The translations under genes were made by a program, and so were the position numbers. 64,000 nucleotides of DNA, from positions 2,457 to 66,456 of the IMG/VR virus record IMGVR_UViG_3300042452_000950; one strand, written 5' to 3'. Below are positions 40,327-64,000 of this stretch, in pieces. The stretch is from a virus. Numbering within the stretch: the first letter of the stretch is position 1; every line of letters begins with the position of its first letter. The notes beneath the pieces are model-generated. The model was not told the origin of the DNA. It did no database searches and worked only from the letters and a program-made list of their open reading frames with translations.

Positions 40327-42582
40327 ATGCCGAGAAAGATAAATAGACGAGGACAACCGCCGGGTCAAGAGGTCACAAGCGGACAGAGTGGCCTGCTTCC
40401 AGGCTATTTATTTGATAAGGTTGTCAGTATACCTGACCAGTACCTAACACTGGGCTCAGAATTACCTTCTGGGCTGTTAATCGGAGGTACCGGAAGTGTC
40501 GGAAACTCTGGAAAAGCGGCACCGCTGGATCACGTTCATACCGTAAGCCACGGAAACCTGATTGGAGGAACGCTGCACGCACTCGCTACCATGATAACTC
40601 CAGGTTTCATGAGTGCGGAGGATAAATACAGATTAGATACGTTATGGAATAGTCCTTCTGGTGGCGGAGGTGGAGGAACCTCGGCGACATTTATTTGGCA
40701 CGAATCTCCGGTAGGCACTAGGAACGGTGTAAACGCAGTATTTACCTTAGCCCAGTCTCCTGATCCTGCAAGCAGTTTAACGCTTTTTAGAAACGGTCTT
40801 TTACTGCGGCCAGGTTCCCCGTACGACTTCTTGTTATCTGGTAATACGGTCACGTTTAATTCGCCGTCGATCCCTATCAGTCCAGATATCCTCAGAGCAA
40901 ACTATCAAATCAGTGATGTATCTCCGGCTGCCCTTGATCACGGAACTTTAACGGGGTTGGCAGACGACGACCACCTTCAATACCTAACATCACCTAGAGC
41001 CAGTACTTGGCTGGCCACCAAGACAACCACAAACCTTACCGAAGGTTCAAATCTATATTTTACTAACGAGCGGGCCCAGGACGCTGTTGGCAACATTTTG
41101 ACGAACTCGTCTACGATAAGTTGGACGTACAACGACGGCCTCGGAACCATATCTGCGGCAGTAATCGCTGGTGGTGTTTCTCACGCGTCCTTAGCGAGCC
41201 TTACCTCAGGTGATCCGCATACACAGTACCAGTTACGTTCTGAAAAGAACGCTAATAGTGGTTACGCTGGGCTAACATCTCTCGGGCTGCTGTCTCCCTC
41301 AAGAATTCCAGCGATGCCACTTTCGTTCTTAAGTGACGTATCTCCTGGAATACCTCTAAATGGTTACGTATTAACGTACAACGCTAGCAGCGGTCAGTGG
41401 CAGTCGCAATCCCCTACTGGTGGCGGTGGCGGGGGTGTGACCGATCACGGGGCTCTAACTGGGTTGACCGATGACGACCACCCGCAGTATCTAACCTCAC
41501 CAAGAGCAAATACGTGGCTCGCCACAAAGACCACATCAAATCTGACCGAGGGATCTGGACTCTACTACACGGACGAAAGAGTCCAGGATGCTGTGGGGGC
41601 GATGGTTTCACCGTCGTCGACCATTCGGTGGTCTTACAATGACGCAGCTGGCAAGATCCAGGCTTTCATATCGCCAGCGAACATCTCTCACGCCTCGCTA
41701 TCAAACCTAACCGTCGGGGATCCACACACTCAGTATCTTCTTGAGTCAGCGGTAAGCGCCTTAATTTTTAGTCCTGGTCAGATATCTCCTCAGGGTTCCG
41801 GATCAGGATTTGATGCAGACACTGTAGACGGTTACCAGGCATCCGCGTTCGCCTTGTCTGGCCACGTACACACCTTAGCGCAGCTAACTGACGTTTCACC
41901 TGGAACTCCGACAAACGGCCAGGTCTTAACTTACAACTTCTCTAGCGGCCAATGGCAAAGCCAGTCTCCTGCTACCGGAGGGGTCTCTGACCACGGATCC
42001 CTTACAGGTCTCGGTGACGATGATCACACTCAGTATCAACTAAGATCAGAAAAGAACACAACCAACGGGTACGCCGGTCTAGATTCTTCCGGGCTGCTCT
42101 CGCCGTCCAGGATACCGTCATTTTCTATAGGGAACCTGTCTGATGTATCTCCAACAACGCCCACCAATAACCAGATTTTGGCGTATCATTCGGCGTCCGG
42201 TCAATGGCGTAACCAATCCCCAACAGCTACTGAGGATATAATTAGTTGCTATATTGATGCTTCGCCAGATCTGATAGCTGTCGGAAAAAAGGCCTACAAA
42301 TTAATGCCTTATAACTGCTCAGTAACCGGCTGGTACGTTGTGGCCTCGACAACTGGAACTATCGCATGGGATGTTAAAAGGACATCATTTGCGTCGTATC
42401 CATCGACAGTATCAATTGTGAACGGAAACAGCCCAATACTTTCTTCTCAATCAAAAAATTCTTATACAACAATTTCAAGCTGGTCTCCGATCTCTGCCGG
42501 GGATGTGCTCGATTTCTTCATAAGCAGTAACAGCGACATTACTAACTCAGGACTATTCCTCAAGATCAGGAGAACCTCGTGA
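40327..42582 (+). CDS. Tail fibre-like protein with His/Asp repeat modules
   Basis: DHGxLTGLxDDDHxQY, NLTEGSNLYFTNERAQDAVG, DPHTQY, DADTVDG, LSDV..GQVLTY..GQW modules. Confidence 0.75.
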   Translation: MPRKINRRGQPPGQEVTSGQSGLLPGYLFDKVVSIPDQYLTLGSELPSGLLIGGTGSVGNSGKAAPLDHVHTVSHGNLIGGTLHALATMITPGFMSAEDKYRLDTLWNSPSGGGGGGTSATFIWHESPVGTRNGVNAVFTLAQSPDPASSLTLFRNGLLLRPGSPYDFLLSGNTVTFNSPSIPISPDILRANYQISDVSPAALDHGTLTGLADDDHLQYLTSPRASTWLATKTTTNLTEGSNLYFTNERAQDAVGNILTNSSTISWTYNDGLGTISAAVIAGGVSHASLASLTSGDPHTQYQLRSEKNANSGYAGLTSLGLLSPSRIPAMPLSFLSDVSPGIPLNGYVLTYNASSGQWQSQSPTGGGGGGVTDHGALTGLTDDDHPQYLTSPRANTWLATKTTSNLTEGSGLYYTDERVQDAVGAMVSPSSTIRWSYNDAAGKIQAFISPANISHASLSNLTVGDPHTQYLLESAVSALIFSPGQISPQGSGSGFDADTVDGYQASAFALSGHVHTLAQLTDVSPGTPTNGQVLTYNFSSGQWQSQSPATGGVSDHGSLTGLGDDDHTQYQLRSEKNTTNGYAGLDSSGLLSPSRIPSFSIGNLSDVSPTTPTNNQILAYHSASGQWRNQSPTATEDIISCYIDASPDLIAVGKKAYKLMPYNCSVTGWYVVASTTGTIAWDVKRTSFASYPSTVSIVNGNSPILSSQSKNSYTTISSWSPISAGDVLDFFISSNSDITNSGLFLKIRRTS

Positions 42583-44993
42583 AATCTGCCGTAGAACACC
42601 ACTTCACTGGAACAACAGAACCGCTTACAGGTACTTACAACTCCTCTAAGACGATGCTCGGATCGCTGCTGCGCCAGGCAACCGGAGCAACCGCTGAGGA
42701 TAAGTTTATATCCACCAAAGCCTCTGTGATGCTCAACATTCCAGAAGTTATGATCGGATCGCAGCATATGCCGCACGTGTACAAGTGGTCAGATAATATC
42801 TATTGGATATTTGCCACGTCGTCGGCGACAGCTTCTGCCACTCGTACGATAACCTTAACAGAATTTAATTCTAACGCCGGAACACTCAGTTACCGAGGCT
42901 TTATCACCCTTTCAGGTACGACCATCTCTACAAGCAAGACCGCCCGTGGTCTGCGCGCGTTTGTCTATGAACATACCACGGGAACAGTCTCTACAAGTGG
43001 CGCTTCGACCACTATTACTGGATCAAGTACGCAGTTCCAAGCGGAAAGGATTGCAGTTGGCGCCCGCATTGGATTTGGAACAACAGATCCGACGGCTGTA
43101 ACGACGTGGTATGACATAACTGCCATAGCTAGCAATACGTCCTTAACGATAAACGCGCCGGTCACACTATCAGGTGGAACGTCCTACGTAATTGAGGAAA
43201 TTAGAATAACGCTACTAGTCACGAACGCAACTGCGATTAACGGAGGGATCCACCTTATTAAAGGGTTGAACTACGGCACATTTATTAGCGGCGGTACAAC
43301 AATACCAGAGGCGACTACAGTAGACAATATTAGAGCGTCATATCTGTTGAAAGACCCTGTGTTCGCTGGTTCTCAGACAGCGACTGTGACGATGACAATC
43401 GCAACGCCATGTGTCGTAACGTTAAACAGCCACGGATTGATTGAAGGCGATACTATCGTACTTACTACCACTGGTGCGCTGCCCACTGGTCTGACAGCTT
43501 CCGCAACTACCGCGACCCTTTATTTTGTTAGAAACCCGACAACTAACACGTTCAACCTCTCGACTACTAGAACGGGTGCACTTGTAAACACATCAGGATC
43601 CCAGTCAGGTACGCACACTATCCACCACTACCCAAGTATGAACGGGGGAGGAATAGCCGCCGAAGATTTTGTTAGCAACACTGACCACTCTTTATATTTG
43701 GTAGGAGTTATTGGTGCTACGGAAGGAGTCATTCTGGAGTACAACATGCGCGCATCGCTGACCGTCGGCGCATATGGATCCGTTCCCAACATTACAGCTG
43801 GCGTTACTCCTAGCGCGTTTGTTTTACGAACTGGAACGGTGACCACGGTACAGCTAACACAAAACAACGGAGCACGTGTGTTTTCAGTCTCTCACGGAGC
43901 GGCCTCCGGTGTGAATAGCCTATACTTTACGGGAACTACTAGAATTTACCGTGCGGCGGTGTCTGGCATCACTTCTGGAAGTACGACCTTTCTTTCGGAC
44001 GCGGGTATGTTGGAGGTTCCTCCGGGAGCAACAGTCACGTACACTGCTCAATCTACGATGTCGCAACTGGATTACTCGTCAATGGTTGACCGCATATTTA
44101 TCTCTAACTCCGGCGGACGATTTGGAATATACGTAGCACCGTACAACACCGCCGGTGATCAATTTGAGAAACTCATGGGAGCTAACCTTAACAGACTCAA
44201 GTTAACAACCACACCATCCGGTGCGTCGGACGGCCTATTCCCAACAACGGTTGTAACCATGTGGACAGAAGATGGGTGGATGTTCACCATCCCCTCCACG
44301 ACAACTACAGGTCAAAACTGGTTGTTGGTTTGGCCCTTCGGAGCGGATGCGTTTTATAACAGCGACAGCGACCAGCACGTGATTACGCCAAAACTGGCAA
44401 CAACTGATGCAAGTAAACTATACCACGTGTACGTCGACCACCAGGAGTACGCGGGCACATACGGACTAGGGTTCCCAGTAGAGAGTTATAAAATTTGGTA
44501 CAGGACTACGGGAATTGATGATGATTCCGGGGCTTGGACAGCGGTCGGTCTTGGAGCCGACCTCACGGGCGTCACTCCAAGCGACTACATTCAGTTTAAG
44601 ATTGCTTTTGATATTATGGGAGAAATCTGCGCCCCAACGAGAATCTATTCAATCTGCTGCACATACGAGGACTCTTCACAAGATTCGCACTACCAACCGT
44701 CACTTTCTAAATCGTCGACGGCCAGCAAGATCTTTGCTTGGAAGCAGGTGGTGGCATGGGGAAGCAATATTCCAAACCTTCGTGTCAGACTGTATGACGC
44801 CAGCACTGAAGTGGAACTACTTAACGACACGGTGACGCTGTCTTCCTACGGTACGTGGCAATACTCTACCGACGGCACTACTTGGAACTCTTGGAGCTCA
44901 TCTGCCGACGCGGTAGGTAATTTTATCAGATATACCGCGAGCGGCTTCGGATACAGCGGAGTGACTGTACGAGTACTACTAACACAGGCATAA
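42579..44993 (+). CDS. Thr/Ser-rich virion (fibre-associated/receptor-binding) protein
   Basis: 804 aa beta-rich; TIATPCVVTLNSHGL..TTTGALPTGL..YFVR module; GTGA overlap. Confidence 0.65.
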   Translation: MKSAVEHHFTGTTEPLTGTYNSSKTMLGSLLRQATGATAEDKFISTKASVMLNIPEVMIGSQHMPHVYKWSDNIYWIFATSSATASATRTITLTEFNSNAGTLSYRGFITLSGTTISTSKTARGLRAFVYEHTTGTVSTSGASTTITGSSTQFQAERIAVGARIGFGTTDPTAVTTWYDITAIASNTSLTINAPVTLSGGTSYVIEEIRITLLVTNATAINGGIHLIKGLNYGTFISGGTTIPEATTVDNIRASYLLKDPVFAGSQTATVTMTIATPCVVTLNSHGLIEGDTIVLTTTGALPTGLTASATTATLYFVRNPTTNTFNLSTTRTGALVNTSGSQSGTHTIHHYPSMNGGGIAAEDFVSNTDHSLYLVGVIGATEGVILEYNMRASLTVGAYGSVPNITAGVTPSAFVLRTGTVTTVQLTQNNGARVFSVSHGAASGVNSLYFTGTTRIYRAAVSGITSGSTTFLSDAGMLEVPPGATVTYTAQSTMSQLDYSSMVDRIFISNSGGRFGIYVAPYNTAGDQFEKLMGANLNRLKLTTTPSGASDGLFPTTVVTMWTEDGWMFTIPSTTTTGQNWLLVWPFGADAFYNSDSDQHVITPKLATTDASKLYHVYVDHQEYAGTYGLGFPVESYKIWYRTTGIDDDSGAWTAVGLGADLTGVTPSDYIQFKIAFDIMGEICAPTRIYSICCTYEDSSQDSHYQPSLSKSSTASKIFAWKQVVAWGSNIPNLRVRLYDASTEVELLNDTVTLSSYGTWQYSTDGTTWNSWSSSADAVGNFIRYTASGFGYSGVTVRVLLTQA

Positions 44994-44994
44994 T

Positions 44995-45135
44995 ATGGAC
45001 GACATTTTATTTGTTTGCAAGTTTTTCTTCCTGGATATGCCTGTTCAGGGTCCTGGAAGTGTTGCCAGAATAGAAGCTCCCACTTCGCTGTTTGTTTTGA
45101 GAATAGCGCTTCCAGAGCGGATCAGTATTTCTTAA
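44995..45135 (+). CDS. Small hypothetical protein (46 aa)
   Basis: ATG..TAA frame MDDILFVCKFF...RISIS fills the gap between two fibre genes. Confidence 0.5.
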   Translation: MDDILFVCKFFFLDMPVQGPGSVARIEAPTSLFVLRIALPERISIS

Positions 45136-45147
45136 TAGGAGCAATCT

Positions 45148-48100
45148 GTGGCCAGACTTAATATTCAATCACCTGATATTGGAACTGGAATAGTAACCAG
45201 TCAAAAGCTGGCTAATACAGGAGTAGTCGCCGGAACTTACAGCCTTCCGACATTAACAGTTAATGCAAAAGGACAGCTTACCAGCATTAACTCAGGAGCA
45301 TTCTCTCCAGGAATGCTGTCACCGACAGGATCTGGCTCGGGTCTAGATGCCGACCTTCTAGATGGATATCACGCATCCGCTTTCGCTCTTGCAGGCCACA
45401 GCCACGCTCTGAATGATTTAACTGACGTAGTCACTCCGTCACCTAAAAATGGACAATTATTAGAATTCGATGGCACCAACTGGGTAAATGCAGTCCGTCC
45501 ATCAAACGAGCCGATCGGACACGAAGACTTCACTGAGAGTACGATATCCTTTGACGAGAGCACTCGTATATTCTCAATTGCTCCAGTTGGTGTATCTCAC
45601 ACGGTGTGGTGTGTTGGTATTCGATATATAAAGACAACAACTGAAACGGTTACCATACCGGACACTACTGCTCTCTACTATATCTATTACTCGTCTTCTG
45701 GAGTTTTATCATATAAGACAAGTTTCTTCACCTGGGATCAGGAAGCTCCTGTAGCATACATTTACTGGAACGCCGACGATAATCGGGCGTACTATCTAGC
45801 AGATGAGCGTCACGGGGTAACGCTGGATTGGGCCACACACGAGTACCTACACAGAACGCGTGGAGCTGCTTACGCTAGTGGGTTTGGGGTAAACAACTAC
45901 ACAACGACAGGCAACGGTAGCCTCGATTCACATGCTCAGATTGATCTGGCTGACGGAACGTTCTTCGACGAAGATCTTCAAATCGATATTGTTCACGCCG
46001 CTTCTCCTGTAGTAAATACTTGGCAACAGCATCTACAAGGTCACGGTCGGTTTCCGATCTTTTATAGAACTGGTAACGTCTGGAAAAGGACATCTCCGAC
46101 CAATTTCCCCATTTATTATACTACGGCGGCTAATTACAACCTGAACTCTGCGGGTCACTGGTCGCCCGTTACTCTAGCGAACAATAGGTATGGAATCTCG
46201 TGGTTAGTTGCCACAAACAACCTTACGTATCCCGCTATGGTTATTTTAGGTCAGGCGGAATACACAAACGAGGCGGGTTACGCGGCAGCAAACTGGAGTG
46301 ATTTGGATCTCTCCGGATTTCCGTCGGTGGAATTCAGACCGCTCCACAAGATTGTTTACCAAACTAGCACTTCGTACGCGAACACACCGAAATCGAGATT
46401 TGTTCACGTTTACGATCTTCGGTCAATCCTTCCAACTGGTGGCGTAACTTCTTTACCAGTTACTGACCACGGGGCTTTAACTGGACTAGGGGATGATGAT
46501 CACCTTCAGTATCTAACATCTCCGAGAGCTAACACATGGCTGGGAACTAAGTCTATCGGAGCCTTGTCCGACGTATCTCCGTCGACACCGCTAGACGGCC
46601 AGGCGCTCATTTATCACTCAGCCAGCGGACAGTGGAGAAATTCTACTCTTCCTTCCGGTGTTACTGACCACGGTTTGCTGACCGGACTTAGTGACGACGA
46701 TCACTTACAGTATTTAACGTCTCCGCGTGCTGATACTTGGCTATCAACTAAAACCACGACCAACCTGCTCGAAGGTACAAATCTGTACTACACAGACGAG
46801 CGGGCACAAGACGCGTTTGGGGGAATGGTATCTCCGTCCTCCACCATTAAATGGTCGTATAACGACGTTGCCGGAAAAATCACCGCGTCAGTATCTCCAG
46901 CAGGAATATCGCACTCGTCGTTAGCAGACCTAACTACAGGAGATCCACATACACAGTACCAGATTGAGTCAGAAAAGAACTCCGCGAACGGGTACATGGG
47001 ACTTGATTCCGGTGGTAGAGCGTCTCCGACTAGGTTAGGTTCAGGTACGCCAACATCGTCAGTTTGGTTACGTGGAGACGGTGTTTGGTCAACGGTTCCG
47101 TATTCTCCTGCCGACGCAATCACGGTCGATGCTACCGCAGTAAAGAATCCAAACTTTGAATCGACTCCAGGAACAGCTCCTCTAAATGCTGTTTTGGTGA
47201 CTTGGGGAATTGATAACGGCGTAAGCCCTGTGGACGTCTACGGGTACGTGACGTACTCAGGTTTAAACACTTGGCTCGGAACCCGTACCACAACTAACTT
47301 AACTGAAGGAACTAACCTCTATTATACGGATGAGAGGGCTCAGGATGCTTTTGGCGCAATGGTATCTCCATCTAGCACTATAAGATGGACTTATAATGAT
47401 GCGGCTGGAAAGATTCAGGCTTTTGTTTCCCCAGCAAATATTTCTCATGCCGATCTAGCGAACCTGACATCCGGAGATCCGCATACTCAGTACCAGCTAA
47501 AATCTCAAAAGAACGTGGCGAATGGCTACGCGGGGCTCGACGCAAGTGGGCTGGTTTCTCCTGTCCGTATTCCAGCGATGCCGCTGTCTTTCCTAAGCGA
47601 TGTCTCGCCAGGAACTCCGACAAATGGACAAGTTCTAACTTATCACACCACTTCTGGTCAGTGGCGCAGCACGTCTCCGACTGTGTACGTTACAGATCAC
47701 GGCGCACTGACCGGATTGGCCGATGATGATCATACTCAGTATCTCACTTCTCCGAGAGCTAATACTTGGTTAGCTACAAAAACTACCACGAACCTACTTG
47801 AAGGTTCTAACCTGTATTACACGGACGAGAGGGTTCAGGATGCGGTCGGGGCAATGGTGTCGCCATCCAGTACCGTGCGGTGGACGTACAACGACGCGGC
47901 AGGAAAAATTCAGGCGTTCGTCTCTCCGGCAAATATCGATCACGGTGCATTAGGCGGCCTTACTGATGACGATCACCTACAGTACCTAACATCTCCTAGG
48001 GCCAACACCTGGTTAGCAACTAAGACCACGACCAATCTAACCGAAGGTTCTAATCTCTACTACACCGATGAAAGAGCGCAGGACGCTTTTGGTGGGATGG

Positions 48101-50475
48101 TCTCGCCCTCGTCAACTATAAAGTGGTCGTACAACGACGTCGCTGGGAAAATAACAGCGTCAGTATCTCCAGCGGGTATCTCTCACGCATCTTTAGCTGA
48201 TCTTACTTCTGGAGATCCGCACACCCAGTACCAGCTAAAATCTGAAAAGAATACGGCTAATGGCTACGCAGGATTAAACTCTTCAGGATTATTGTCTCCT
48301 AGCCGAATTCCCGCGATGCCCTTGTCATTCTTGAGCGACGTTTCGCCAAGCAGTGTGACAAATGGACAGGTTTTGACTTACCATTCGGCAAGCGGCCAAT
48401 GGAGAAACTCCTCTCCTAGCGTGGTAATAACAGATCACGGGCTGCTTACCGGCCTAGCTGACGACGACCACACGCAGTATTTGACCTCTCCCCGCGCGAA
48501 TACGTGGCTGGCTACAAAGACCACGGACAACCTAACGCAAGGATCAACCAATCTTTATTTCACAGACGAGCGCGCACAGGATGCTGTTGGAAACATCCTA
48601 ACTAATACGTCCACCATAAAATGGACCTATAACGATGGATCAAATATTATCTCGGCTGACGTATCTCCAGCTGGTATTTCACACGCCTCGTTAGCCAACC
48701 TAACGACTGGGGATCCGCACACCCAATATCAATTAGAGTCTGAGAAGAACGTGGCCAATGGGTATGCTGGCCTTAATAGTTCAGGACTTCTGTCGCCAAG
48801 CAGAATTCCTGCCATGCCGCTCTCGTTCCTTAGTGATGTATCTCCAAGCAGCGTAACTAATGGACAAGTTCTCACATATCACGCAGCAAGTACTCAGTGG
48901 AGAAACACGTCGCCCAGCACTGTAATAACAGATCACGGACTTTTGACGGGGCTTGTGGACGATGATCACCTACAATATTTAACGTCGCCTCGTGCTAATA
49001 CTTGGTTAGCCACAAAAACTACCACAAATCTTACCGAGGGTAGCAACCTCTACTACACAGATGAACGGGCACAGGATGCTGTTGGCGGAATGGTGTCCCC
49101 GTCATCTACCATAAAGTGGACATACAACGATGTTGCTGGAAAGATAATTGCTCAGGTATCTCCAGCCGGTATTTCCCACGCATCTTTAGCTAACCTAACC
49201 ACAGGTGATCCGCATACCCAGTATCAACTCAAATCTGAAAAGAACGCTGTTAACGGCTACGCCGGTTTGAATTCCTCCGGATTACTGTCCCCAAGCAGAA
49301 TCCCGGCGATGCCGCTCTCGTTTTTAAGTGATGTGTCGCCGTCTTCTTCAACAAATGGACAAGTACTAACTTATCACTCTGCTAGCGGGCAGTGGAGAAA
49401 CCAGTCTCCAACCGTGTATGTGACAGATCACGGAAATCTGACGGGATTAGCAGATGATGATCACCTGCAGTATCTGACATCGCCGCGGGCAAATACATGG
49501 TTGGCAACCAAGACCACCACGAACTTAACTGAAGGAACTAATCTTTACTACACGGATGAGCGAGTTCAGGACGCTGTCGGAGCGATGGTCTCGCCGTCCA
49601 CAACAATAAGGTGGACATATAACGACACCGCGGGGAAGATCCAAGCCTTCGTATCTCCGGCTAACATTTCCCACGCCTCGTTAGCAAACTTAACCACGGG
49701 CGATCCACATACCCAGTACCAACTTAAGTCTGAAAAGAATTCTGCCAACGGTTACGCCGGTCTTAACGCGTCTGGTCTGCTATCGCCCAGCCGTATACCG
49801 GCGATGCCTCTGTCGTTCTTGAGCGATGTTTCCCCAACGGCGCCAACTAATGGCCAGGTGTTAACCTACCATTCTGCCTCTAGTCAGTGGCGTAACCAGT
49901 CACCTACGGGTGGCGGAGTAACTGATCACAGTGCGCTAACAGGACTGGGAAATGACGATCACACTCAATACGCTTTACTGGACGGCACACGTCCATTTGA
50001 TAATAGCGGCTTAAAAATATGGGACTCTATTACAACTTATTCACTTACTTTCACAAATAATTCAGCACAGTCTACAGATCATTTTATTTATTTAGATACT
50101 ACTAGTCCAGTAATCAACGTAACACTTAGAGGCGATTTAACGGTATCCGCCCTAGGGGCGCAGGTCAGCGGAAACAACAACGGCGACGTGACATTAGCCG
50201 GGTCGTATGACTATATCACCTTAGCTAACCAGGTGATCACGCGTGGCCAAATTGATCTGACAACAGACGTTACTGGTGATCTTCCATTCTCAAATATTAC
50301 ACCGGCTACATCACCTAGTGTTTTATTAGGAAGAGGATCAGCGAGTTCAGGGGACTTCCAGCAGATTACACTTGGTTCTGGTTTGACCATGACCGGTACT
50401 ACGTTATCCTCGTCGGGTGGAAGTGGGACTAGTTTTGCTACGGTAATGGCGATTAACAGTTTTGGAGGTTTCTAG
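45148..50475 (+). CDS. Long tail fibre protein with tandem ~165-aa repeats
   Basis: 1775 aa; AGGAG RBS; TGVVAGTY..TVNAKGQLT; repeated DHG..DDDH, TDERAQDA, DPHTQY, LSDVSP modules. Confidence 0.8.
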   Translation: MARLNIQSPDIGTGIVTSQKLANTGVVAGTYSLPTLTVNAKGQLTSINSGAFSPGMLSPTGSGSGLDADLLDGYHASAFALAGHSHALNDLTDVVTPSPKNGQLLEFDGTNWVNAVRPSNEPIGHEDFTESTISFDESTRIFSIAPVGVSHTVWCVGIRYIKTTTETVTIPDTTALYYIYYSSSGVLSYKTSFFTWDQEAPVAYIYWNADDNRAYYLADERHGVTLDWATHEYLHRTRGAAYASGFGVNNYTTTGNGSLDSHAQIDLADGTFFDEDLQIDIVHAASPVVNTWQQHLQGHGRFPIFYRTGNVWKRTSPTNFPIYYTTAANYNLNSAGHWSPVTLANNRYGISWLVATNNLTYPAMVILGQAEYTNEAGYAAANWSDLDLSGFPSVEFRPLHKIVYQTSTSYANTPKSRFVHVYDLRSILPTGGVTSLPVTDHGALTGLGDDDHLQYLTSPRANTWLGTKSIGALSDVSPSTPLDGQALIYHSASGQWRNSTLPSGVTDHGLLTGLSDDDHLQYLTSPRADTWLSTKTTTNLLEGTNLYYTDERAQDAFGGMVSPSSTIKWSYNDVAGKITASVSPAGISHSSLADLTTGDPHTQYQIESEKNSANGYMGLDSGGRASPTRLGSGTPTSSVWLRGDGVWSTVPYSPADAITVDATAVKNPNFESTPGTAPLNAVLVTWGIDNGVSPVDVYGYVTYSGLNTWLGTRTTTNLTEGTNLYYTDERAQDAFGAMVSPSSTIRWTYNDAAGKIQAFVSPANISHADLANLTSGDPHTQYQLKSQKNVANGYAGLDASGLVSPVRIPAMPLSFLSDVSPGTPTNGQVLTYHTTSGQWRSTSPTVYVTDHGALTGLADDDHTQYLTSPRANTWLATKTTTNLLEGSNLYYTDERVQDAVGAMVSPSSTVRWTYNDAAGKIQAFVSPANIDHGALGGLTDDDHLQYLTSPRANTWLATKTTTNLTEGSNLYYTDERAQDAFGGMVSPSSTIKWSYNDVAGKITASVSPAGISHASLADLTSGDPHTQYQLKSEKNTANGYAGLNSSGLLSPSRIPAMPLSFLSDVSPSSVTNGQVLTYHSASGQWRNSSPSVVITDHGLLTGLADDDHTQYLTSPRANTWLATKTTDNLTQGSTNLYFTDERAQDAVGNILTNTSTIKWTYNDGSNIISADVSPAGISHASLANLTTGDPHTQYQLESEKNVANGYAGLNSSGLLSPSRIPAMPLSFLSDVSPSSVTNGQVLTYHAASTQWRNTSPSTVITDHGLLTGLVDDDHLQYLTSPRANTWLATKTTTNLTEGSNLYYTDERAQDAVGGMVSPSSTIKWTYNDVAGKIIAQVSPAGISHASLANLTTGDPHTQYQLKSEKNAVNGYAGLNSSGLLSPSRIPAMPLSFLSDVSPSSSTNGQVLTYHSASGQWRNQSPTVYVTDHGNLTGLADDDHLQYLTSPRANTWLATKTTTNLTEGTNLYYTDERVQDAVGAMVSPSTTIRWTYNDTAGKIQAFVSPANISHASLANLTTGDPHTQYQLKSEKNSANGYAGLNASGLLSPSRIPAMPLSFLSDVSPTAPTNGQVLTYHSASSQWRNQSPTGGGVTDHSALTGLGNDDHTQYALLDGTRPFDNSGLKIWDSITTYSLTFTNNSAQSTDHFIYLDTTSPVINVTLRGDLTVSALGAQVSGNNNGDVTLAGSYDYITLANQVITRGQIDLTTDVTGDLPFSNITPATSPSVLLGRGSASSGDFQQITLGSGLTMTGTTLSSSGGSGTSFATVMAINSFGGF
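46459..49975 (+). repeat. Protein-level tandem repeats (unit 495-498 bp) inside the fibre gene
   Basis: TDH(G/S) module starts at 48430, 48928, 49423 and 49921; partial and shuffled units upstream. Confidence 0.85.
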
Positions 50476-50477
50476 TA

Positions 50478-51671
50478 ATGGCTATAACGCTCGATGCGAC
50501 TACACACAGTTTAGAAATTACCACAAGTGCTGCTGTGAGCATGCACTGGAACACTGCCTGGGTTGATGCTACCGCGTCAGCATTTACACCTGGAAGTAAT
50601 CAAGGAACTATTAGCACTGCTACTACTACAGCGATAGTGGCCGCTCCTTCGCCGTCTACACAGCGCGGTGTAAAATTTATTAGTGTGTACAACAATGGAG
50701 TATCATCTCCTCAGACTGTAACAGTCAAAAAGGATGTTTCCGCGACTGAATACACCTTATTTAAAACAACGATTCTTCCTGGGGAATCTCTTCAGTATTC
50801 TGACAACTCTGGGTGGGGGACTTTTGACGGTGTTGGTAGAAGAAGGGCGATTGCGCCAGAGCTGTCTACTGTTGGTGCGACAACGAGTCGAAGCTACTAC
50901 AAAGTTGGTAGCACTAGTTACGGAGCAAACGTTTGGTATTGTTTCGCTAAAGACGCCGGAATGCCGGGAGCCTGGGCTCCAGGGACACCTGGCGTTGGTG
51001 GTAGGGCAACCGACGGAACGACCTCGGCGGACAACGGATGTTTTATTATTCCAAGCTCATCAGCTTCTCAGTACATAACACAGGCAAACTTACACACCAG
51101 TTCCGCGGCGGCGTATACTCTGTGGGATATTCTTTTAGTCAATTCTGGTATGAACCAGACGCAGACAACATCTCAAACACTTAATACCGTAACGCTTCCT
51201 GCAAGAGACAATAACGGAACCACATCCGGTGAAGGATGTTACGCTGGACTTCTGTTTACAAGCGGAGGTACACACAGTGTTAATCCCTCTGCCACAATTA
51301 CCTACACTAATTCCGCTGGAACCGGATCTAGAACAGGCACATTGACAGCAATCGCTGGTGAGCAAATAGGCTCTAACCAAGTCGCTGGATCAGTAATTTT
51401 CTTTAAATTAGCCAACGGAGATAAGGGAGTACAATCAGTACAGTCAATAACACTCGCAGTATCTCTAGGAACTGCTGTGGCGTCTCTAATTATAGCTAGG
51501 CCGATTCTATCATTTGCGGGCGCGAGTAACTATTACACTTTAGTCAGGCAGTATGCCGATGGAAATCCTGGAATCAGAATCTTCAGTGGCTCCTGCCTAC
51601 ATGTTTTTATGCGTCCGAGCTCTAACCTGCAGTCCACCATATACGGACAATTGATGATTTCCGAGAGATGA
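50478..51671 (+). CDS. Fibre-associated virion protein, paralog 1
   Basis: 397 aa; shares THSLE, GRATDG, LPxRDNNGT, GEGCYAGLL, FKLAxGDxGV, LIIARP with the next gene. Confidence 0.7.
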   Translation: MAITLDATTHSLEITTSAAVSMHWNTAWVDATASAFTPGSNQGTISTATTTAIVAAPSPSTQRGVKFISVYNNGVSSPQTVTVKKDVSATEYTLFKTTILPGESLQYSDNSGWGTFDGVGRRRAIAPELSTVGATTSRSYYKVGSTSYGANVWYCFAKDAGMPGAWAPGTPGVGGRATDGTTSADNGCFIIPSSSASQYITQANLHTSSAAAYTLWDILLVNSGMNQTQTTSQTLNTVTLPARDNNGTTSGEGCYAGLLFTSGGTHSVNPSATITYTNSAGTGSRTGTLTAIAGEQIGSNQVAGSVIFFKLANGDKGVQSVQSITLAVSLGTAVASLIIARPILSFAGASNYYTLVRQYADGNPGIRIFSGSCLHVFMRPSSNLQSTIYGQLMISER

Positions 51672-52855
51672 TTCAACTTACTAATACTTCTCACTCTCTT
51701 GAACTTCAAACAAGCGGCTCCAGTACAATAAACTGGTCTTGCTACTACGTAGATATCGGAGCAGCTAGCACAACGCCAGGAAGCGCCCAAGGGTCGGTTG
51801 CATCGGCAACTACCACAACCATAGCCTCGGCTCCCGGAGCCAGCACGACCAGATTGATAAAAAATATTATGGCTGTTAATACTGGTACGGCTTCCCAGAC
51901 ATTAACAGTCAAAAAAGATGTTAGCGGATCTGAAACAATAATTCTAAAGGCGACTATTAATAAAGACGAGTCGTTACTCTATTCGGCAGAACGAGGCTGG
52001 ACTAGATACGATAGTGCTGGAAATGAAATTATCGATCTCGCTCAAAGAGATATAGCGGTAGATTTTTCATCTTCGTATAGAAAAACGGGCACAACGCCAG
52101 AGGCGGGTGCGACCTGGTATACACACGCTAAAGATACACCGGTGTGGTCACCGTTTACAAGCTCAACAGCAGGGCGAGCGACAGATGGAAGAACTTCGCC
52201 TGATTGGGCCGGGTGCTTGAGGCTATATTCACCGGCGAACACCTGGTATCTCAACGAGGTGGAGTTTTCTACGACGTTTAGAGGTGCCTACTCGTTCTGG
52301 GATATATTGTGGGCCAACGGGGGCATAGTTGTAACTACGACAACTCAACAGATAATGAATAGCCCTATCACCGTTAACCTTCCACCTCGTGACAACAACG
52401 GAACATCAAATGGAGAAGGGTGCTACGCTGGATTATTAATTCTTACGGCCACGACGAACGCATCAGCAATCTCTAACTCAACCATACGCTACACCAGCGC
52501 GGCAAACTCACCTAATAAAGTTGGAACCTTCAGCGCTATAACCGGTGATAGAATTGCGCCAACATTTGTCGCCGGATCGGTAGTCTGGTTTAAATTGGCT
52601 GCGGGAGATACCGGAGTCCGATCCATACAAGCGCTTACACTGAATACAAGCTTAGGCGGTGGCCGTGTTGCGTTAATCATCGCTCGGCCAGTAACAGGAA
52701 CCATCACCTACCAATATAACCCTTTTAATGTCAGCACAGGTTTCGATTTTCCAGGAATTAAGGTGTTCGCTGGATCTAATATGCACATGTTTTCAATTTA
52801 CGAGTCAGCTATTAATAGCACTGTTTCCGCTGTAGTCAAATTTTTTGATGTGTGA
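51668..52855 (+). CDS. Fibre-associated virion protein, paralog 2
   Basis: 395 aa, colinear with the previous gene; ATGA overlap. Confidence 0.7.
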   Translation: MIQLTNTSHSLELQTSGSSTINWSCYYVDIGAASTTPGSAQGSVASATTTTIASAPGASTTRLIKNIMAVNTGTASQTLTVKKDVSGSETIILKATINKDESLLYSAERGWTRYDSAGNEIIDLAQRDIAVDFSSSYRKTGTTPEAGATWYTHAKDTPVWSPFTSSTAGRATDGRTSPDWAGCLRLYSPANTWYLNEVEFSTTFRGAYSFWDILWANGGIVVTTTTQQIMNSPITVNLPPRDNNGTSNGEGCYAGLLILTATTNASAISNSTIRYTSAANSPNKVGTFSAITGDRIAPTFVAGSVVWFKLAAGDTGVRSIQALTLNTSLGGGRVALIIARPVTGTITYQYNPFNVSTGFDFPGIKVFAGSNMHMFSIYESAINSTVSAVVKFFDV

Positions 52856-62249: not shown

Positions 62250-62450
62250 TTAGCTGTTTTTTCGTTTGCCGACCGTATATGTTTCGATCATGTCGATCAT
62301 CGTTTTAAGCATGATAAGGTAATGCCTTTCTCGAAGCTCTTCCTTATCTTTGGACTGGTCTTCCAACGTTTTATACCCGTCCAAATATTTTTTGATAGCG
62401 TTTTCGTAATGAATCAGTCTGCTTGATTCAGAGCTGTCCTTTGCTACCAT
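62250..62450 (-). CDS. Small hypothetical protein
   Basis: 66 aa, GGAGG RBS. Confidence 0.65.
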   Translation of the reverse strand: MVAKDSSESSRLIHYENAIKKYLDGYKTLEDQSKDKEELRERHYLIMLKTMIDMIETYTVGKRKNS

Positions 62451-62462
62451 ACGCCTCCAGTT

Positions 62463-62714
62463 TTAGTTATCGGGAACTTCGTCTTTTTCTAAGAAAATTA
62501 ACGTATTGAAGTTGTGCTGATACTCTCTACGTAGCGCCTCAGAAACGCTGTCATCAAGATTAGTCATCCATCTGATTTGGGCCTCGTGTGCCTGTACTGC
62601 CGCCTCAACGATTCCTTGAGCGCGCACAAAGTTATCTTCTTCTGTCTTGTCTCCAGAAGTAGGAAATCCAGCGGCTACCAGCTCAACAGCTTCTCTAAGT
62701 CCCATGTACTTCAT
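62463..62714 (-). CDS. Small hypothetical protein
   Basis: 83 aa, AAGGAG RBS. Confidence 0.65.
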   Translation of the reverse strand: MKYMGLREAVELVAAGFPTSGDKTEEDNFVRAQGIVEAAVQAHEAQIRWMTNLDDSVSEALRREYQHNFNTLIFLEKDEVPDN

Positions 62715-62868
62715 TATCTTTCTCCTTTTCGACTAGTTTAGTCAGCACTTCTACAGCTAGCTGGTAGTTGCTCCAATCATGTGCACAACTGGGATCTGAG
62801 TAGTCGAAGTGATACGAATACCTCGGATCTCCTACGATCAGAATTTTTAGCGCTTCTTCGGGTTTCAT
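62695..62868 (-). CDS. Small hypothetical protein (start MKPEEALK)
   Basis: AAGGAG RBS; the ORF-track start lies inside the tRNA. Confidence 0.6.
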   Translation of the reverse strand: MKPEEALKILIVGDPRYSYHFDYSDPSCAHDWSNYQLAVEVLTKLVEKEKDNEVHGT

Positions 62869-62913
62869 GTTCTCTCCTTGTACCGGGCTAAGTTTCCTCT
62901 GCCCAGATTTGAA

Positions 62914-63017
62914 TGGTCGGCCCGGAGGGACTCGAACCCTCAACCATCCCTATATCAGAGGGCGCCTTTCGGGGCGGATTATAAATCCGCTGCTCTAACC
63001 AATTGAGCTACGGGCCG
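62914..63017 (-). tRNA. tRNA-Ile(UAU), 104 nt, with a 27-nt insertion containing a second GAU anticodon-like arm
   Basis: CGGCCCG/CGGGCCG acceptor + ACCA; D arm GCTC-AATTGGTTA-GAGC; GCGGA-TTTATAA-TCCGC; T arm GAGGG-TTCGAGT-CCCTC. Confidence 0.9.
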
Positions 63018-63114
63018 TTTTAGGTTAGAGCAGCCAGGCAAGGGAAGCCTGAACACAGAGATGGTTACTTACAGTCTATCAGAATTTCTAGGCGATTGTT
63101 ATCAATTTAGATTT

Positions 63115-63261
63115 TTATTGGTGCTTCATTTCTTCACCACATAGATAACAGACGAGCTTTCCCGTATTTGGAATAGCTCCATTGTAGCGGTACTTACAGT
63201 AAACACCTTCCATAGGTGTGCCGCTATTATAGATGGCAAACGTTCGTGAACAGAGATTCAT
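63115..63261 (-). CDS. Small Cys-rich protein (48 aa)
   Basis: MNLCSRTF...VYCKY...VCYLCGEEMKHQ; GAGGAG RBS; ATGA overlap. Confidence 0.55.
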   Translation of the reverse strand: MNLCSRTFAIYNSGTPMEGVYCKYRYNGAIPNTGKLVCYLCGEEMKHQ

Positions 63262-63569
63262 TTGCTCTCCTCGTCGCTGTCTTCAATTCCGTACCCGGAT
63301 CCTTTACCGACCGAGTAGCCGTAGTTTTCTCCACGACCGTCGCCGTGTCCGTCTCCATCACTATAGCCATATCCGTATTTACCTAACCCGTGACCCTCAC
63401 CGAAGGATTCTGCCATACCGTAGGCACCTTCATAACTGAATCCGTTTCCACTGCCGTGCCCATCGTCTCCCATATAGTCACCGTACCCGGATCCGTTTCC
63501 GTAACCTTCAGAATACCCGAACCCCTCGCCTTGACGGCTCATTTTGCCCCTAATCATTTTGGGATTCAT
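63258..63569 (-). CDS. Gly-X (GY/GD/GS) repeat protein
   Basis: MNPKMIRGKMSRQG then Gly at alternate positions; GAGGA RBS. Confidence 0.7.
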   Translation of the reverse strand: MNPKMIRGKMSRQGEGFGYSEGYGNGSGYGDYMGDDGHGSGNGFSYEGAYGMAESFGEGHGLGKYGYGYSDGDGHGDGRGENYGYSVGKGSGYGIEDSDEESK

Positions 63570-63589
63570 CCTGAACTATATCCTCTTTG

Positions 63590-63998
<409 letters not shown>

Positions 63999-64000
63999 AT

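What the first reader, a model, noticed from the sequence alone, without database searches (positions are those of the whole stretch)
62989..63034. tRNA 5' leader carries a 12-nt perfect antisense to its own D arm
Seen: 63023-63034 (ggttagagcagc) is the exact reverse complement of 62989-63000 (gctgctctaacc). In the precursor, leader GCUGCUCUAACC, 5 nt upstream of position 1, can pair with GGUUAGAGCAGC (D loop, 3' D stem and the first two bases of the UAU arm). Inference: an alternative precursor fold that blocks the cloverleaf or destabilises the first anticodon arm until 5' processing, possibly a switch tied to the two-arm architecture.
Basis: partly seen in the sequence, partly recalled or inferred. 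Interest (0 to 1): 0.7.

Follow-up and report, generated by a model that had tools for sequence, protein, structure and literature searches.

The report
Phage tRNA locked by its leader
In this lake-water phage, the RNA just in front of an unusual isoleucine tRNA is built to base-pair with two parts of the tRNA, so the fresh transcript should fold into a non-tRNA shape until the leader is removed; related tRNAs elsewhere lack this.

Summary
The tRNA lies on the minus strand (63017..62914, Rfam 64.5 bits). The 12/12 leader/D-arm repeat is exact. A second, collinear helix was missed. Leader 63067..63052 pairs with tRNA nt 62-77, which cover the GAU of the second arm, its 3' strand and the variable loop. 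This helix has 16 pairs: 11 Watson-Crick, 5 G.U and no mismatch.

With a 58-nt leader the precursor folds at -70.7 kcal/mol (z -5.4). That is 18.8 kcal/mol below any cloverleaf-containing fold. The leader-body interaction energy is -16.8, against -7.2 for the next best of 86 other natural tRNA loci.

One 96%-identical relative (L067) keeps the leader unchanged. However, 14 metagenomic and 23 genomic two-arm tRNA-Ile loci have no such complementarity. The lock is therefore specific to this lineage and not part of the two-arm design.

No data show that the leader is transcribed. My best reading, at moderate confidence, is a cis-antisense lock that gates tRNA maturation.

This scan has noted antisense leaders or trailers at other tRNAs on other DNA, and the two-arm tRNA-Ile many times.

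The parts
62914..63017 (-). 104-nt tRNA-Ile gene with encoded CCA. It has a UAU anticodon arm (nt 28-44), a CC-GAAA-GG mini-hairpin, a second arm CCCU-CUGAUAU-AGGG showing GAU, a 5-nt variable loop and a T arm.
   Evidence: RF00005 64.5 bits. Cloverleaf MFE -41.9 kcal/mol. The same layout is seen in metagenomic and genomic relatives.
63023..63034 (-). Leader arm of helix P3 (GCUGCUCUAACC), 12 Watson-Crick pairs with tRNA nt 18-29.
62989..63000 (-). tRNA arm of P3: D loop GGUUA, D stem 3' strand, A26 and the first 2 nt of the UAU arm.
63052..63067 (-). Leader arm of helix P1 (UAACCAUCUCUGUGUU), 16 pairs with tRNA nt 62-77: 11 Watson-Crick, 5 G.U, no mismatch.
   Evidence: (I4, 10-nt core)
62941..62956 (-). 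tRNA arm of P1: the GAU of the second arm, the rest of its loop, its 3' stem strand, the variable loop and the first T-stem base.
63035..63051 (-). Leader hairpin CAGGC-UUCCCUU-GCCUG between the two leader arms. Function unknown. By my reading its loop is complementary to GAGGG of the T stem.
   Evidence: the loop/T-stem complementarity is read from the sequence
63018..63022 (-). Unpaired linker UAAAA between the lock and tRNA nt 1 (the expected RNase P site is 63018/63017).
63068..63114 (-). Distal, A+U-rich part of the 97-nt intergenic leader, with no strong structure. It holds the only 2 leader differences from L067.
63115..63261 (-). Upstream 48-aa ORF on the same strand. The only relatives found are within its own 90% cluster.
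62695..62868 (-). Downstream 57-aa ORF on the same strand (ATG 62868..62866, preceded by AAGGAGAG). A trailer hairpin lies at 62906..62883.

Best explanation
The 5' leader is a cis-acting antisense lock on this phage's two-arm tRNA-Ile(UAU).

How the lock forms (shown in silico): as the transcript is made, leader 63034..63023 captures the D loop and D stem as soon as tRNA nt 29 emerges. Leader 63067..63052 then captures the GAU arm's 3' half and the variable loop at nt 70-78. The result is a five-way junction of P1, the leader hairpin, P3, the UAU arm and the GAAA hairpin. In this junction the D arm, the tertiary core and, in the nested model, the acceptor stem cannot form.

What follows (inferred): the tRNA becomes functional only after the leader is cut off and removed. 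One possible route is a cut in the exposed A/U-rich linker or by RNase P acting on a minor or pseudoknotted conformer, followed by 3'-exonuclease or helicase clearance of the 28-bp duplex. The lock would therefore delay or limit the supply of mature AUA-reading tRNA, or protect the polycistronic message from RNase P. It evolved in this phage lineage only and is not part of the two-arm tRNA design.
For: - Two independent, collinear helices target the same molecule: 12 Watson-Crick pairs plus 16 pairs.
- All 5 non-Watson-Crick positions are G.U on the tRNA-sense RNA, and there are no mismatches. The sense RNA folds at -70.7 kcal/mol (z -5.4, 0 of 200 shuffles as good). The opposite strand folds at -59.6 (z -2.6).
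- The lock beats the cloverleaf by 18.8 kcal/mol, and P(leader:D helix) is 0.998.
- Leader-body interaction energy is -16.8 for the window and -16.6 for L067. The next of 86 other natural loci is -7.2, and most are near -1. RNAduplex z is -4.95, with 0 of 200 shuffles as good.
- Stepwise folding shows P3 is formed by nt 29 and P1 by nt 78, before the 3' acceptor strand exists.
- Either helix alone abolishes the acceptor stem in silico. With both arms reversed, P(acceptor) returns to 0.67, against a mean of 0.65 for shuffled leaders.
- L067, a relative with 29 differences in 683 nt, has 0 differences in 192 consecutive nt. These cover 58 nt of leader, the tRNA and 30 nt of trailer. Third codon positions of the flanking ORFs differ at about 13%.
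- The P1 target AGGGATGGTT occurs in 0 of 117 other tRNAs examined, so the leader is matched to its own tRNA.
- Genes on both sides are on the same strand, and no sigma-70-like promoter was found between them and the tRNA. Read-through transcripts would therefore carry the leader.
Against: - Only one lineage is known (the window plus L067), and the two leaders are identical, so there is no covariation.
- Against the neighbouring non-coding baseline (5 differences in 92 nt), zero differences in 50-58 nt is only P of about 0.04-0.06 (my arithmetic). A recent exchange of the block would also explain the identity.
- The lock is absent from 14 metagenomic and 23 genomic two-arm tRNA-Ile loci.
- There is no transcript evidence for the leader. 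The two RNA-library contigs that hold the tRNA start inside it, or stop 4 nt into the leader, and both run into different downstream sequence.
- In 24% of shuffled leaders the predicted acceptor stem is also lost. Many natural precursors also show this predicted loss. Loss of the cloverleaf in silico is therefore not special by itself; only the size of the energy gap is.
- Nearest-neighbour models ignore tRNA tertiary structure, modifications, proteins and pseudoknots. An acceptor/T minihelix (about -14 and -4 to -7 kcal/mol) could coexist with the lock.
Confidence: 0.45

Rival explanations
1. The complementarity is a mutational by-product without function. It could be a decayed inverted partial duplication of the tRNA, or a quasi-palindrome 'corrected' by template switching. 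The cell's RNases, helicases and tRNA-binding proteins would resolve it, or transcription would start downstream of it.
For: - It is found in a single lineage only and is absent from 37 related two-arm loci.
- The order of the leader arms is what an inverted copy of the D-arm-to-variable-loop segment would give.
- Perfect 12-nt inverted repeats are not rare window-wide.
- The conservation evidence is weak against the non-coding baseline.
Against: - All 5 non-Watson-Crick positions in 28 pairs are G.U on the sense RNA, with no mismatch. If substitutions were random, each would keep pairing with a probability of at most about one third, so 5 of 5 has P of about 0.004 or less (my estimate).
- The segment between the leader arms bears no likeness to the tRNA's middle part, and no tRNA-like match exists on the plus strand at E up to 10.
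- The two helices differ in decay (0 of 12 against 5 of 16).
- The sense strand is favoured by 11 kcal/mol.
Confidence: 0.28
2. P1 and P3, stacked through the leader strand, form a quasi-continuous double-stranded region of about 28 bp. This could be a processing site for RNase III or a similar nuclease. Its purpose would be to cut the operon transcript, or to limit or destroy this tRNA, rather than to gate RNase P.
For: - 28 pairs in two collinear helices, separated only by a hairpin on one strand.
- The tRNA sits inside a same-strand operon of small genes.
- From recalled knowledge, phages commonly use RNase III sites between genes.
Against: - The tRNA strand between the helices carries 32 nt of other structure, so the duplex is far from regular.
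- No host or nuclease is known for this phage.
- Nothing was tested here.
Confidence: 0.1
3. After RNase P cleavage the released leader acts in trans as a small antisense RNA. Its target would be the phage tRNA itself, or host tRNAs that share the D-arm sequence.
For: - The D-arm 12-mer is common: 16 of 117 other sampled tRNAs carry GGTTAGAGCAGC and 105 of 117 carry GGTTAGAGCA, although that sample was selected for this D arm.
- Many other organisms' tRNA contigs in the same lakes match 62975-63014.
Against: - The longer helix P1 targets a sequence found in 0 of 117 other tRNAs.
- Both arms are arranged to fit one molecule in cis.
- Folded, modified tRNAs are poor antisense targets (general knowledge).
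Confidence: 0.08
4. The inverted repeat works at the DNA level (a recombination or protein-binding site), or in a plus-strand transcript.
For: The 12-nt repeat is a perfect DNA palindrome pair.
Against: - The 22-nt spacer holds the tRNA's 5' end.
- The second helix has 5 positions that are G.U only on the minus-strand RNA and would be A.C on the other strand or mismatches in DNA.
- The plus-strand fold is weaker.
- No credible plus-strand gene lies here.
Confidence: 0.04

Closest known systems
Synthetic aptazyme-controlled tRNAs (Ogawa & Maeda 2008; Berschneider et al. 2009), as described in the introduction of PMC7897497 (section read; the original papers were not seen)
   Same: In the primary transcript the tRNA structure is disrupted because its 5' part is paired with an upstream element. 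The tRNA becomes usable only after the upstream part is cut away.
   Different: Those are engineered and use a ligand-dependent hammerhead for release. Here no ribozyme or aptamer family matches at E up to 10. The pairing covers the D arm and the variable region, and the releasing activity is unknown.
Rationally designed RNase P riboswitches (PMC7897497: abstract, introduction and passages read; PMC8925977: abstract in a search listing only)
   Same: The structure of the 5' leader decides whether RNase P can mature the tRNA.
   Different: The riboswitch sequesters the single-stranded leader next to the cleavage site and deliberately leaves the tRNA body untouched. Here the 5 nt next to the site stay unpaired and the tRNA body itself is sequestered. 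There is no evidence for a ligand.
Two-arm tRNA-Ile (UAU arm plus GAU arm), found repeatedly in this scan and here in metagenomes, Actinomyces, Nevskia/Lysobacteraceae and Dehalococcoidia. I found no paper on it.
   Same: The tRNA of this window is a member. The UAU arm follows A26, and the second arm with loop CUGAUAU lies one base plus a 5-nt variable loop before the T stem.
   Different: This copy has an extra CC-GAAA-GG hairpin between the arms and a weak 4-bp second arm. Of 39 two-arm loci examined, only this one and L067 carry the antisense leader.
Antisense leader or trailer modules at other tRNAs noted by this scan (e1-5266566 tRNA-Gly in Bacteroidales; e1-4329853 tRNA-Arg in Clostridia; e1-5735330 phage tRNA with an antisense trailer). 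These are AI notes and were not checked here.
   Same: A flanking segment of the precursor is antisense to part of the adjacent tRNA.
   Different: Those target the anticodon arm or the first 29 nt. Some include a decoy copy of the tRNA, and they are reported as conserved across many genomes. This one targets the D arm and the variable side in two helices and is known from one lineage.

Membership tests
tRNA (Rfam RF00005) | Covariance-model score above the gathering threshold over the full model | tested here: met
   64.5 bits against 29, model positions 1-71 of 71, with a 28-nt insertion placed in the variable region.
tRNA (Rfam RF00005) | The isolated sequence folds into acceptor, D, anticodon and T arms | tested here: met
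   The MFE of the 104-nt RNA is the cloverleaf plus two extra hairpins, -41.9 kcal/mol, with P(acceptor) 0.99.
Two-arm tRNA-Ile (UAU + GAU) | UAU anticodon arm directly after A26, then a second hairpin with loop C-U/A-G-A-U-N-N, followed by one base, a 5-nt variable loop and the T stem | tested here: met
   Read from the sequence. Same register as L014, L016, L025, L027 and the Actinomyces loci.
Two-arm tRNA-Ile (UAU + GAU) | The antisense leader is a family trait | tested here: not met
   0 of 14 metagenomic and 0 of 23 genomic two-arm loci show it. Only 100 nt upstream and 60 nt downstream were examined.
RNase P riboswitch type leader | The sequestor pairs with the single-stranded leader immediately 5' of the cleavage site | tested here: not met
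   The 5 nt UAAAA before nt 1 are unpaired in the MFE and centroid folds.
RNase P riboswitch type leader | Ligand-binding aptamer | tested here: inconclusive
   No Rfam riboswitch match at E up to 10 in 62700-63300. An unknown aptamer cannot be excluded.
Ribozyme-released (aptazyme-like) tRNA | Self-cleaving ribozyme in the leader | tested here: not met
   No ribozyme family among the 6 matches at E up to 10.
Inverted tRNA pseudogene or fragment | tRNA-like match on the plus strand of the leader | tested here: not met
   No plus-strand RF00005 match at E up to 10. The middle of the leader is unlike the tRNA middle (sequence reading).
Intrinsic terminator or attenuator | G+C-rich hairpin followed by a U run | tested here: not met
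   No terminator-like site between 63114 and 62869 in the scan. The leader hairpin is followed by GCUGCU, not by U's.

The most novel reading that the evidence does not exclude
This may be a natural 'pro-tRNA': a tRNA transcribed in a self-inhibited, stably misfolded form. A dedicated step would activate it, for example removal of the antisense leader by a nuclease or helicase at a particular stage of infection. The phage could thereby time the supply of its AUA-decoding tRNA to late genes. The fibre-like genes at 40327-52855 hold 59 of the 181 AUA codons counted. It would be the natural counterpart of engineered leader-controlled tRNAs.
Probability: 0.25. Interest if true: 0.7.

Novelty: new variant of a known kind. 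Interest (0 to 1): 0.5.

Why it matters
The influence of pre-tRNA leaders on RNase P processing is known from in vitro and synthetic work (PMC7897497). In the searches I ran I found no natural tRNA whose own leader clamps its body with 28 base pairs. If real, it would show that tRNA supply can be gated at the folding step. It would also give a compact natural design, with two antisense arms around a hairpin, for controllable tRNAs. It concerns a tRNA class (two-arm Ile) that itself appears undescribed.

It also carries a caution. The lock is not part of the two-arm architecture, so it should not be used to explain that architecture.

Tried and rejected
- **Homologous loci in IMG/VR.** Four DNA patterns and the neighbouring 212-aa protein gave no relative of this locus. 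One search gave 5 other long-variable-arm UAU tRNAs. The one match lies in coding sequence. The exact D-arm inverted-repeat pattern with a 10-33 nt spacer has 0 matches in viral contigs.
- **GenBank phages.** Only a 42-nt tRNA match to Acinetobacter phage ZZ1.
- **PHROGs on 10 neighbouring ORFs.** Only a dehydrogenase and a DnaB-like helicase were named.
- **Neighbour proteins.** The 57-aa and 48-aa ORFs have only their own 90% clusters, with 4 and 2 members.
- **Promoter.** No sigma-70-like site in 62400-64000. A TG-n-TAGACT motif ends 6-7 nt before helix P1, but it is not repeated in the window: 7 matches with up to 3 mismatches against 5.4 expected. I make no promoter claim.
- **Plus-strand tRNA fragment, ribozyme or riboswitch in the leader.** None at E up to 10.
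- **Reads.** The 4 runs laid were all contigs. No RNA contig covers the leader, so nothing can be said about its transcription. The two DNA runs hold the identical sequence and no variants.
- **Errors.** timed out and was replaced. The P(D stem) column and the P(acceptor) column used a wrong index and are not used. The 'ORF58' begins one codon too early: the true ORF is 57 aa, 62695-62868. The difference at 62869 therefore belongs to the trailer, and I recounted by hand.
- **Supplements.** Supplementary files of the papers were not seen and are unlikely to bear on this locus.

Full report
**What is there.** The window is the last 64 kb of a 66,456-base IMG/VR virus record, estimated 34% complete. 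The same sequence occurs in lake-water and other freshwater runs of 17 studies. Its only tRNA lies on the minus strand at 63017..62917, with an encoded CCA to 62914. Rfam RF00005 scores 64.5 bits against a gathering score of 29. ARAGORN does not call it because a 28-nt insertion sits in the variable region.

Read on the minus strand, the gene has these parts:
- acceptor strand CGGCCCG and a standard D arm;
- an anticodon arm GCGGA-UUUAUAA-UCCGC (UAU);
- a CC-GAAA-GG mini-hairpin;
- a second arm CCCU-CUGAUAU-AGGG that shows GAU;
- a 5-nt variable loop, the T arm, discriminator A and CCA.

Alone, it folds as a cloverleaf with the two extra hairpins at -41.9 kcal/mol. Genes on both sides are on the same strand. 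A 48-aa ORF ends at 63115, 97 nt upstream. A 57-aa ORF starts at 62868 behind AAGGAGAG.

**The observation.** The 12-nt repeat is exact and at the stated coordinates (pair I2). The 12-mer occurs nowhere else in the window, even with one mismatch. On the tRNA-sense RNA the leader arm is 63034..63023 and is followed by UAAAA and tRNA nt 1. It pairs with nt 18-29: the D loop GGUUA, the 3' strand of the D stem, A26, and the first two bases of the UAU arm.

Window-wide, such a repeat is not remarkable. The window has four distinct perfect repeats of 12 nt or more within 100 nt, and 24% of simulated windows have at least one. As a match between a tRNA and its own 100-nt leader it is unusual. None of 200 shuffled leaders reached 12 (maximum 9). 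In 115 other tRNA loci with long inserts the longest leader-body complement was 9.

A second helix lies outside the first. Leader 63067..63052 (UAACCAUCUCUGUGUU) pairs with tRNA nt 62-77. That stretch covers the GAU and the rest of the second arm's loop, its 3' stem strand, the variable loop and the first T-stem base. The helix has 16 pairs: 11 Watson-Crick, 5 G.U and no mismatch (I4, 11, 73). Between the two leader arms sits a hairpin, CAGGC-UUCCCUU-GCCUG.

Together these form a five-way junction: P1, the leader hairpin, P3, the intact UAU arm and the GAAA hairpin. The main figures are:
- With a 58-nt leader the MFE is -70.7 kcal/mol, z -5.4, and 0 of 200 dinucleotide shuffles fold as well.
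- The same stretch read as plus-strand RNA gives only -59.6, z -2.6. This fits the G.U pairs, which exist only on the sense RNA.
- Forcing the cloverleaf costs 6.6 kcal/mol with a 17-nt leader. It costs 18.4-18.8 kcal/mol with leaders of 58-150 nt. The leader:D-arm helix has ensemble probability 0.998 throughout.
- Folding growing transcripts shows P3 complete as soon as nt 29 is made and P1 by nt 78. That is before the 3' acceptor strand exists.
- Reversing either leader arm alone still gives P(acceptor) of 0.000. With both arms reversed it returns to 0.67. Shuffled leaders give a mean of 0.65, and 24% of them are below 0.1.

**Controls with natural precursors.** Of these, 88 had a leader of at least 60 nt and a pairable acceptor stem. 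I computed E(precursor) - E(tRNA) - E(leader) for each. The window gives -16.8 and L067 -16.6. The next best is -7.2, and most values lie between -1 and 0. Several natural precursors also lose the predicted acceptor stem. What is exceptional here is the size of the energy gap, not the loss itself.

**Relatives.** L067, a 1,946-base metagenome contig, matches window 62581-63263 at 95.75% identity, with 29 differences in 683 and no gaps. The differences are distributed as follows:
- 13 in the 48-aa ORF;
- 2 in the distal leader (63076, 63082);
- 0 in the 50-nt paired leader;
- 0 in the tRNA;
- 3 in the 45-nt trailer;
- 5 in the 57-aa ORF;
- 6 in the part of the next ORF that is covered (trailer and ORF boundary recounted by hand).

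The block 62884-63075 (192 nt) is identical. Third codon positions differ at 19 of 151, about 13%. At that rate, zero changes in 50 nt has P of about 0.001. Against the flanking non-coding rate (5 of 92) it has P of only about 0.06. Conservation is therefore suggestive, not decisive. There is no covariation because the two leaders are identical.

**Is it tied to the two-arm design?** No. The scans uncovered a real family of tRNA-Ile genes with a UAU arm followed by a GAU-showing arm.
- In metagenomes the members are L014 (closest, with the same T arm), L016, L025, L027, L033, L035, L050, L058, L060, L070, L073, L074, L110 and L116. Some of these are near-identical to each other.
- In genomes the family occurs in about two dozen Actinomyces assemblies. 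It also occurs in Nevskia and a Lysobacteraceae MAG (with an extra hairpin between the arms, as here), in Dehalococcoidia and in a Thorarchaeota MAG. The Pelagibacteraceae matches lie in what looks like coding sequence and are not tRNAs.

None of the 14 metagenomic members has leader or trailer complementarity beyond chance. Leader z-scores run from -0.74 to +0.64 and trailer z-scores from -1.30 to +1.23, against -4.95 for the window and L067. None of the 24 genomic loci scanned, 23 of them two-arm, has it either: longest complements are 5-7 nt and z runs from -0.9 to +1.4. The exact D-arm inverted-repeat pattern has no other match in IMG/VR.

**Cis or trans?** The D-arm 12-mer is common: 16 of 117 other sampled tRNAs carry it. 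The P1 target occurs in 0 of 117. Both arms are ordered to fit one molecule. A cis target is the economical reading.

**Origin.** An inverted partial duplication would give this arm order. Three points argue against a plain relic:
- The leader's middle is unlike the tRNA's middle.
- No plus-strand tRNA-like match exists.
- All five non-Watson-Crick positions are G.U on the sense RNA. If random substitutions had hit a once-perfect helix, each would keep pairing with a probability of at most about one third. Five of five then has P of about 0.004 or less (my estimate).

This favours selection on the RNA helix, whatever its origin.

**Mechanism (inferred).** The lock sequesters G18 and G19, the D stem, the variable loop and the GAU arm. 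That is the whole tertiary core. The UAU arm stays free.

In the nested model the acceptor stem is lost too. However, an acceptor/T minihelix could form as a pseudoknot with the P3 loop. The duplex is worth -14.0 and the T hairpin -3.8 to -6.7 kcal/mol. By subtraction from the energies, the non-native 3' hairpin it would replace is worth about -10. RNase P might therefore still cut. The product would remain duplexed to the leader through 28 pairs until a nuclease or helicase clears it.

Either way, functional tRNA should appear late or in limited amounts. Alternatively, the message around the tRNA is spared from RNase P.

AUA makes up 181 of 18,775 codons in the 52 ORFs of 120 aa or more. Of these, 59 lie in the five fibre-like genes at 40327-52855. 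A delayed supply would fit late-gene demand, but this is speculation.

**Expression.** No data bear on the leader. Two RNA-library contigs contain the tRNA. X16 covers 62909-63003 with 0 differences, and X20 covers 62913-63021 with 1 difference. Both continue into unlike downstream sequence, and the X20 alignment stops 4 nt into the leader with 5 letters left. This shows that the same tRNA exists in other contexts. At most it hints that the leader there differs. DNA carry-over in those libraries cannot be excluded.

**Literature.** Searches for two-anticodon or second-arm tRNAs and for Actinomyces tRNA-Ile(UAU) found nothing on the two-arm design. Searches on pre-tRNA leaders pairing with the tRNA body found only synthetic systems and general RNase P work. 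PMC7897497 (abstract, introduction and passages read) describes designed leaders that control RNase P. In its introduction it also describes earlier aptazyme-tRNA fusions in which the tRNA structure is disrupted in the primary transcript. That is the closest known principle.

Earlier notes of this scan report antisense leaders or trailers at other tRNAs on other DNA, and the two-arm tRNA-Ile many times. I used them as leads only.

**Verdict.** The alternative-fold reading is supported in silico for this lineage. The tie to the two-arm architecture is not supported. Function remains untested.

Noticed in passing
L128-L186 (e.g. L129 1957-2002, L135 3880-3940, L158 4284-4344, L173, L184, L185, L172): Two-arm tRNA-Ile (UAU arm plus a CUGAUAA arm) occurs in cellular genomes: about two dozen Actinomyces assemblies, Nevskia and a Lysobacteraceae MAG (with an extra hairpin between the arms), Dehalococcoidia and a Thorarchaeota MAG. 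I found no paper on it.
   Followed up: partly
window 63258-64000, minus strand: Three or more tandem small ORFs rich in Gly-Tyr repeats (GYGYGYG...) lie upstream of the tRNA operon. Their coding repeats (GGCTATGGCTATGG) trigger the terminator-like hits.
   Followed up: no
L029, L059, L084, L087, L099, L100, L107, L120, L125 and others: Many metagenomic tRNAs with anticodon loop CUGUUAA (GUU, Asn-type) carry 20-45-nt inserts directly after the loop's AA. These are intron-like insertions at the canonical 37/38 position, in bacterial or phage-like contigs.
   Followed up: no
L013, L018, L019, L038, L041, L061, L082, L102, L113, L123: A recurrent 110-nt tRNA-like gene (acceptor TGCAGAA...) has a roughly 45-nt insert in the anticodon region. 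It is conserved across several assemblies.
   Followed up: no
L003 4273-4362; L006 6629-6719, 7615-7699: Large-phage tRNA clusters hold tRNA-Lys genes of 85-91 nt, i.e. a class-I identity with a long extra arm. They sit next to normal-length copies.
   Followed up: no
   Followed up: no
window 40327-52855: AUA codons are concentrated in five large fibre-like genes: 59 of the 181 AUA codons counted in 52 ORFs.
   Followed up: partly
window 62909-63021 (runs X16, X20): RNA-library contigs carry this exact two-arm tRNA joined to different downstream sequence. The tRNA therefore also exists in other genomic contexts in fresh water.
   Followed up: partly
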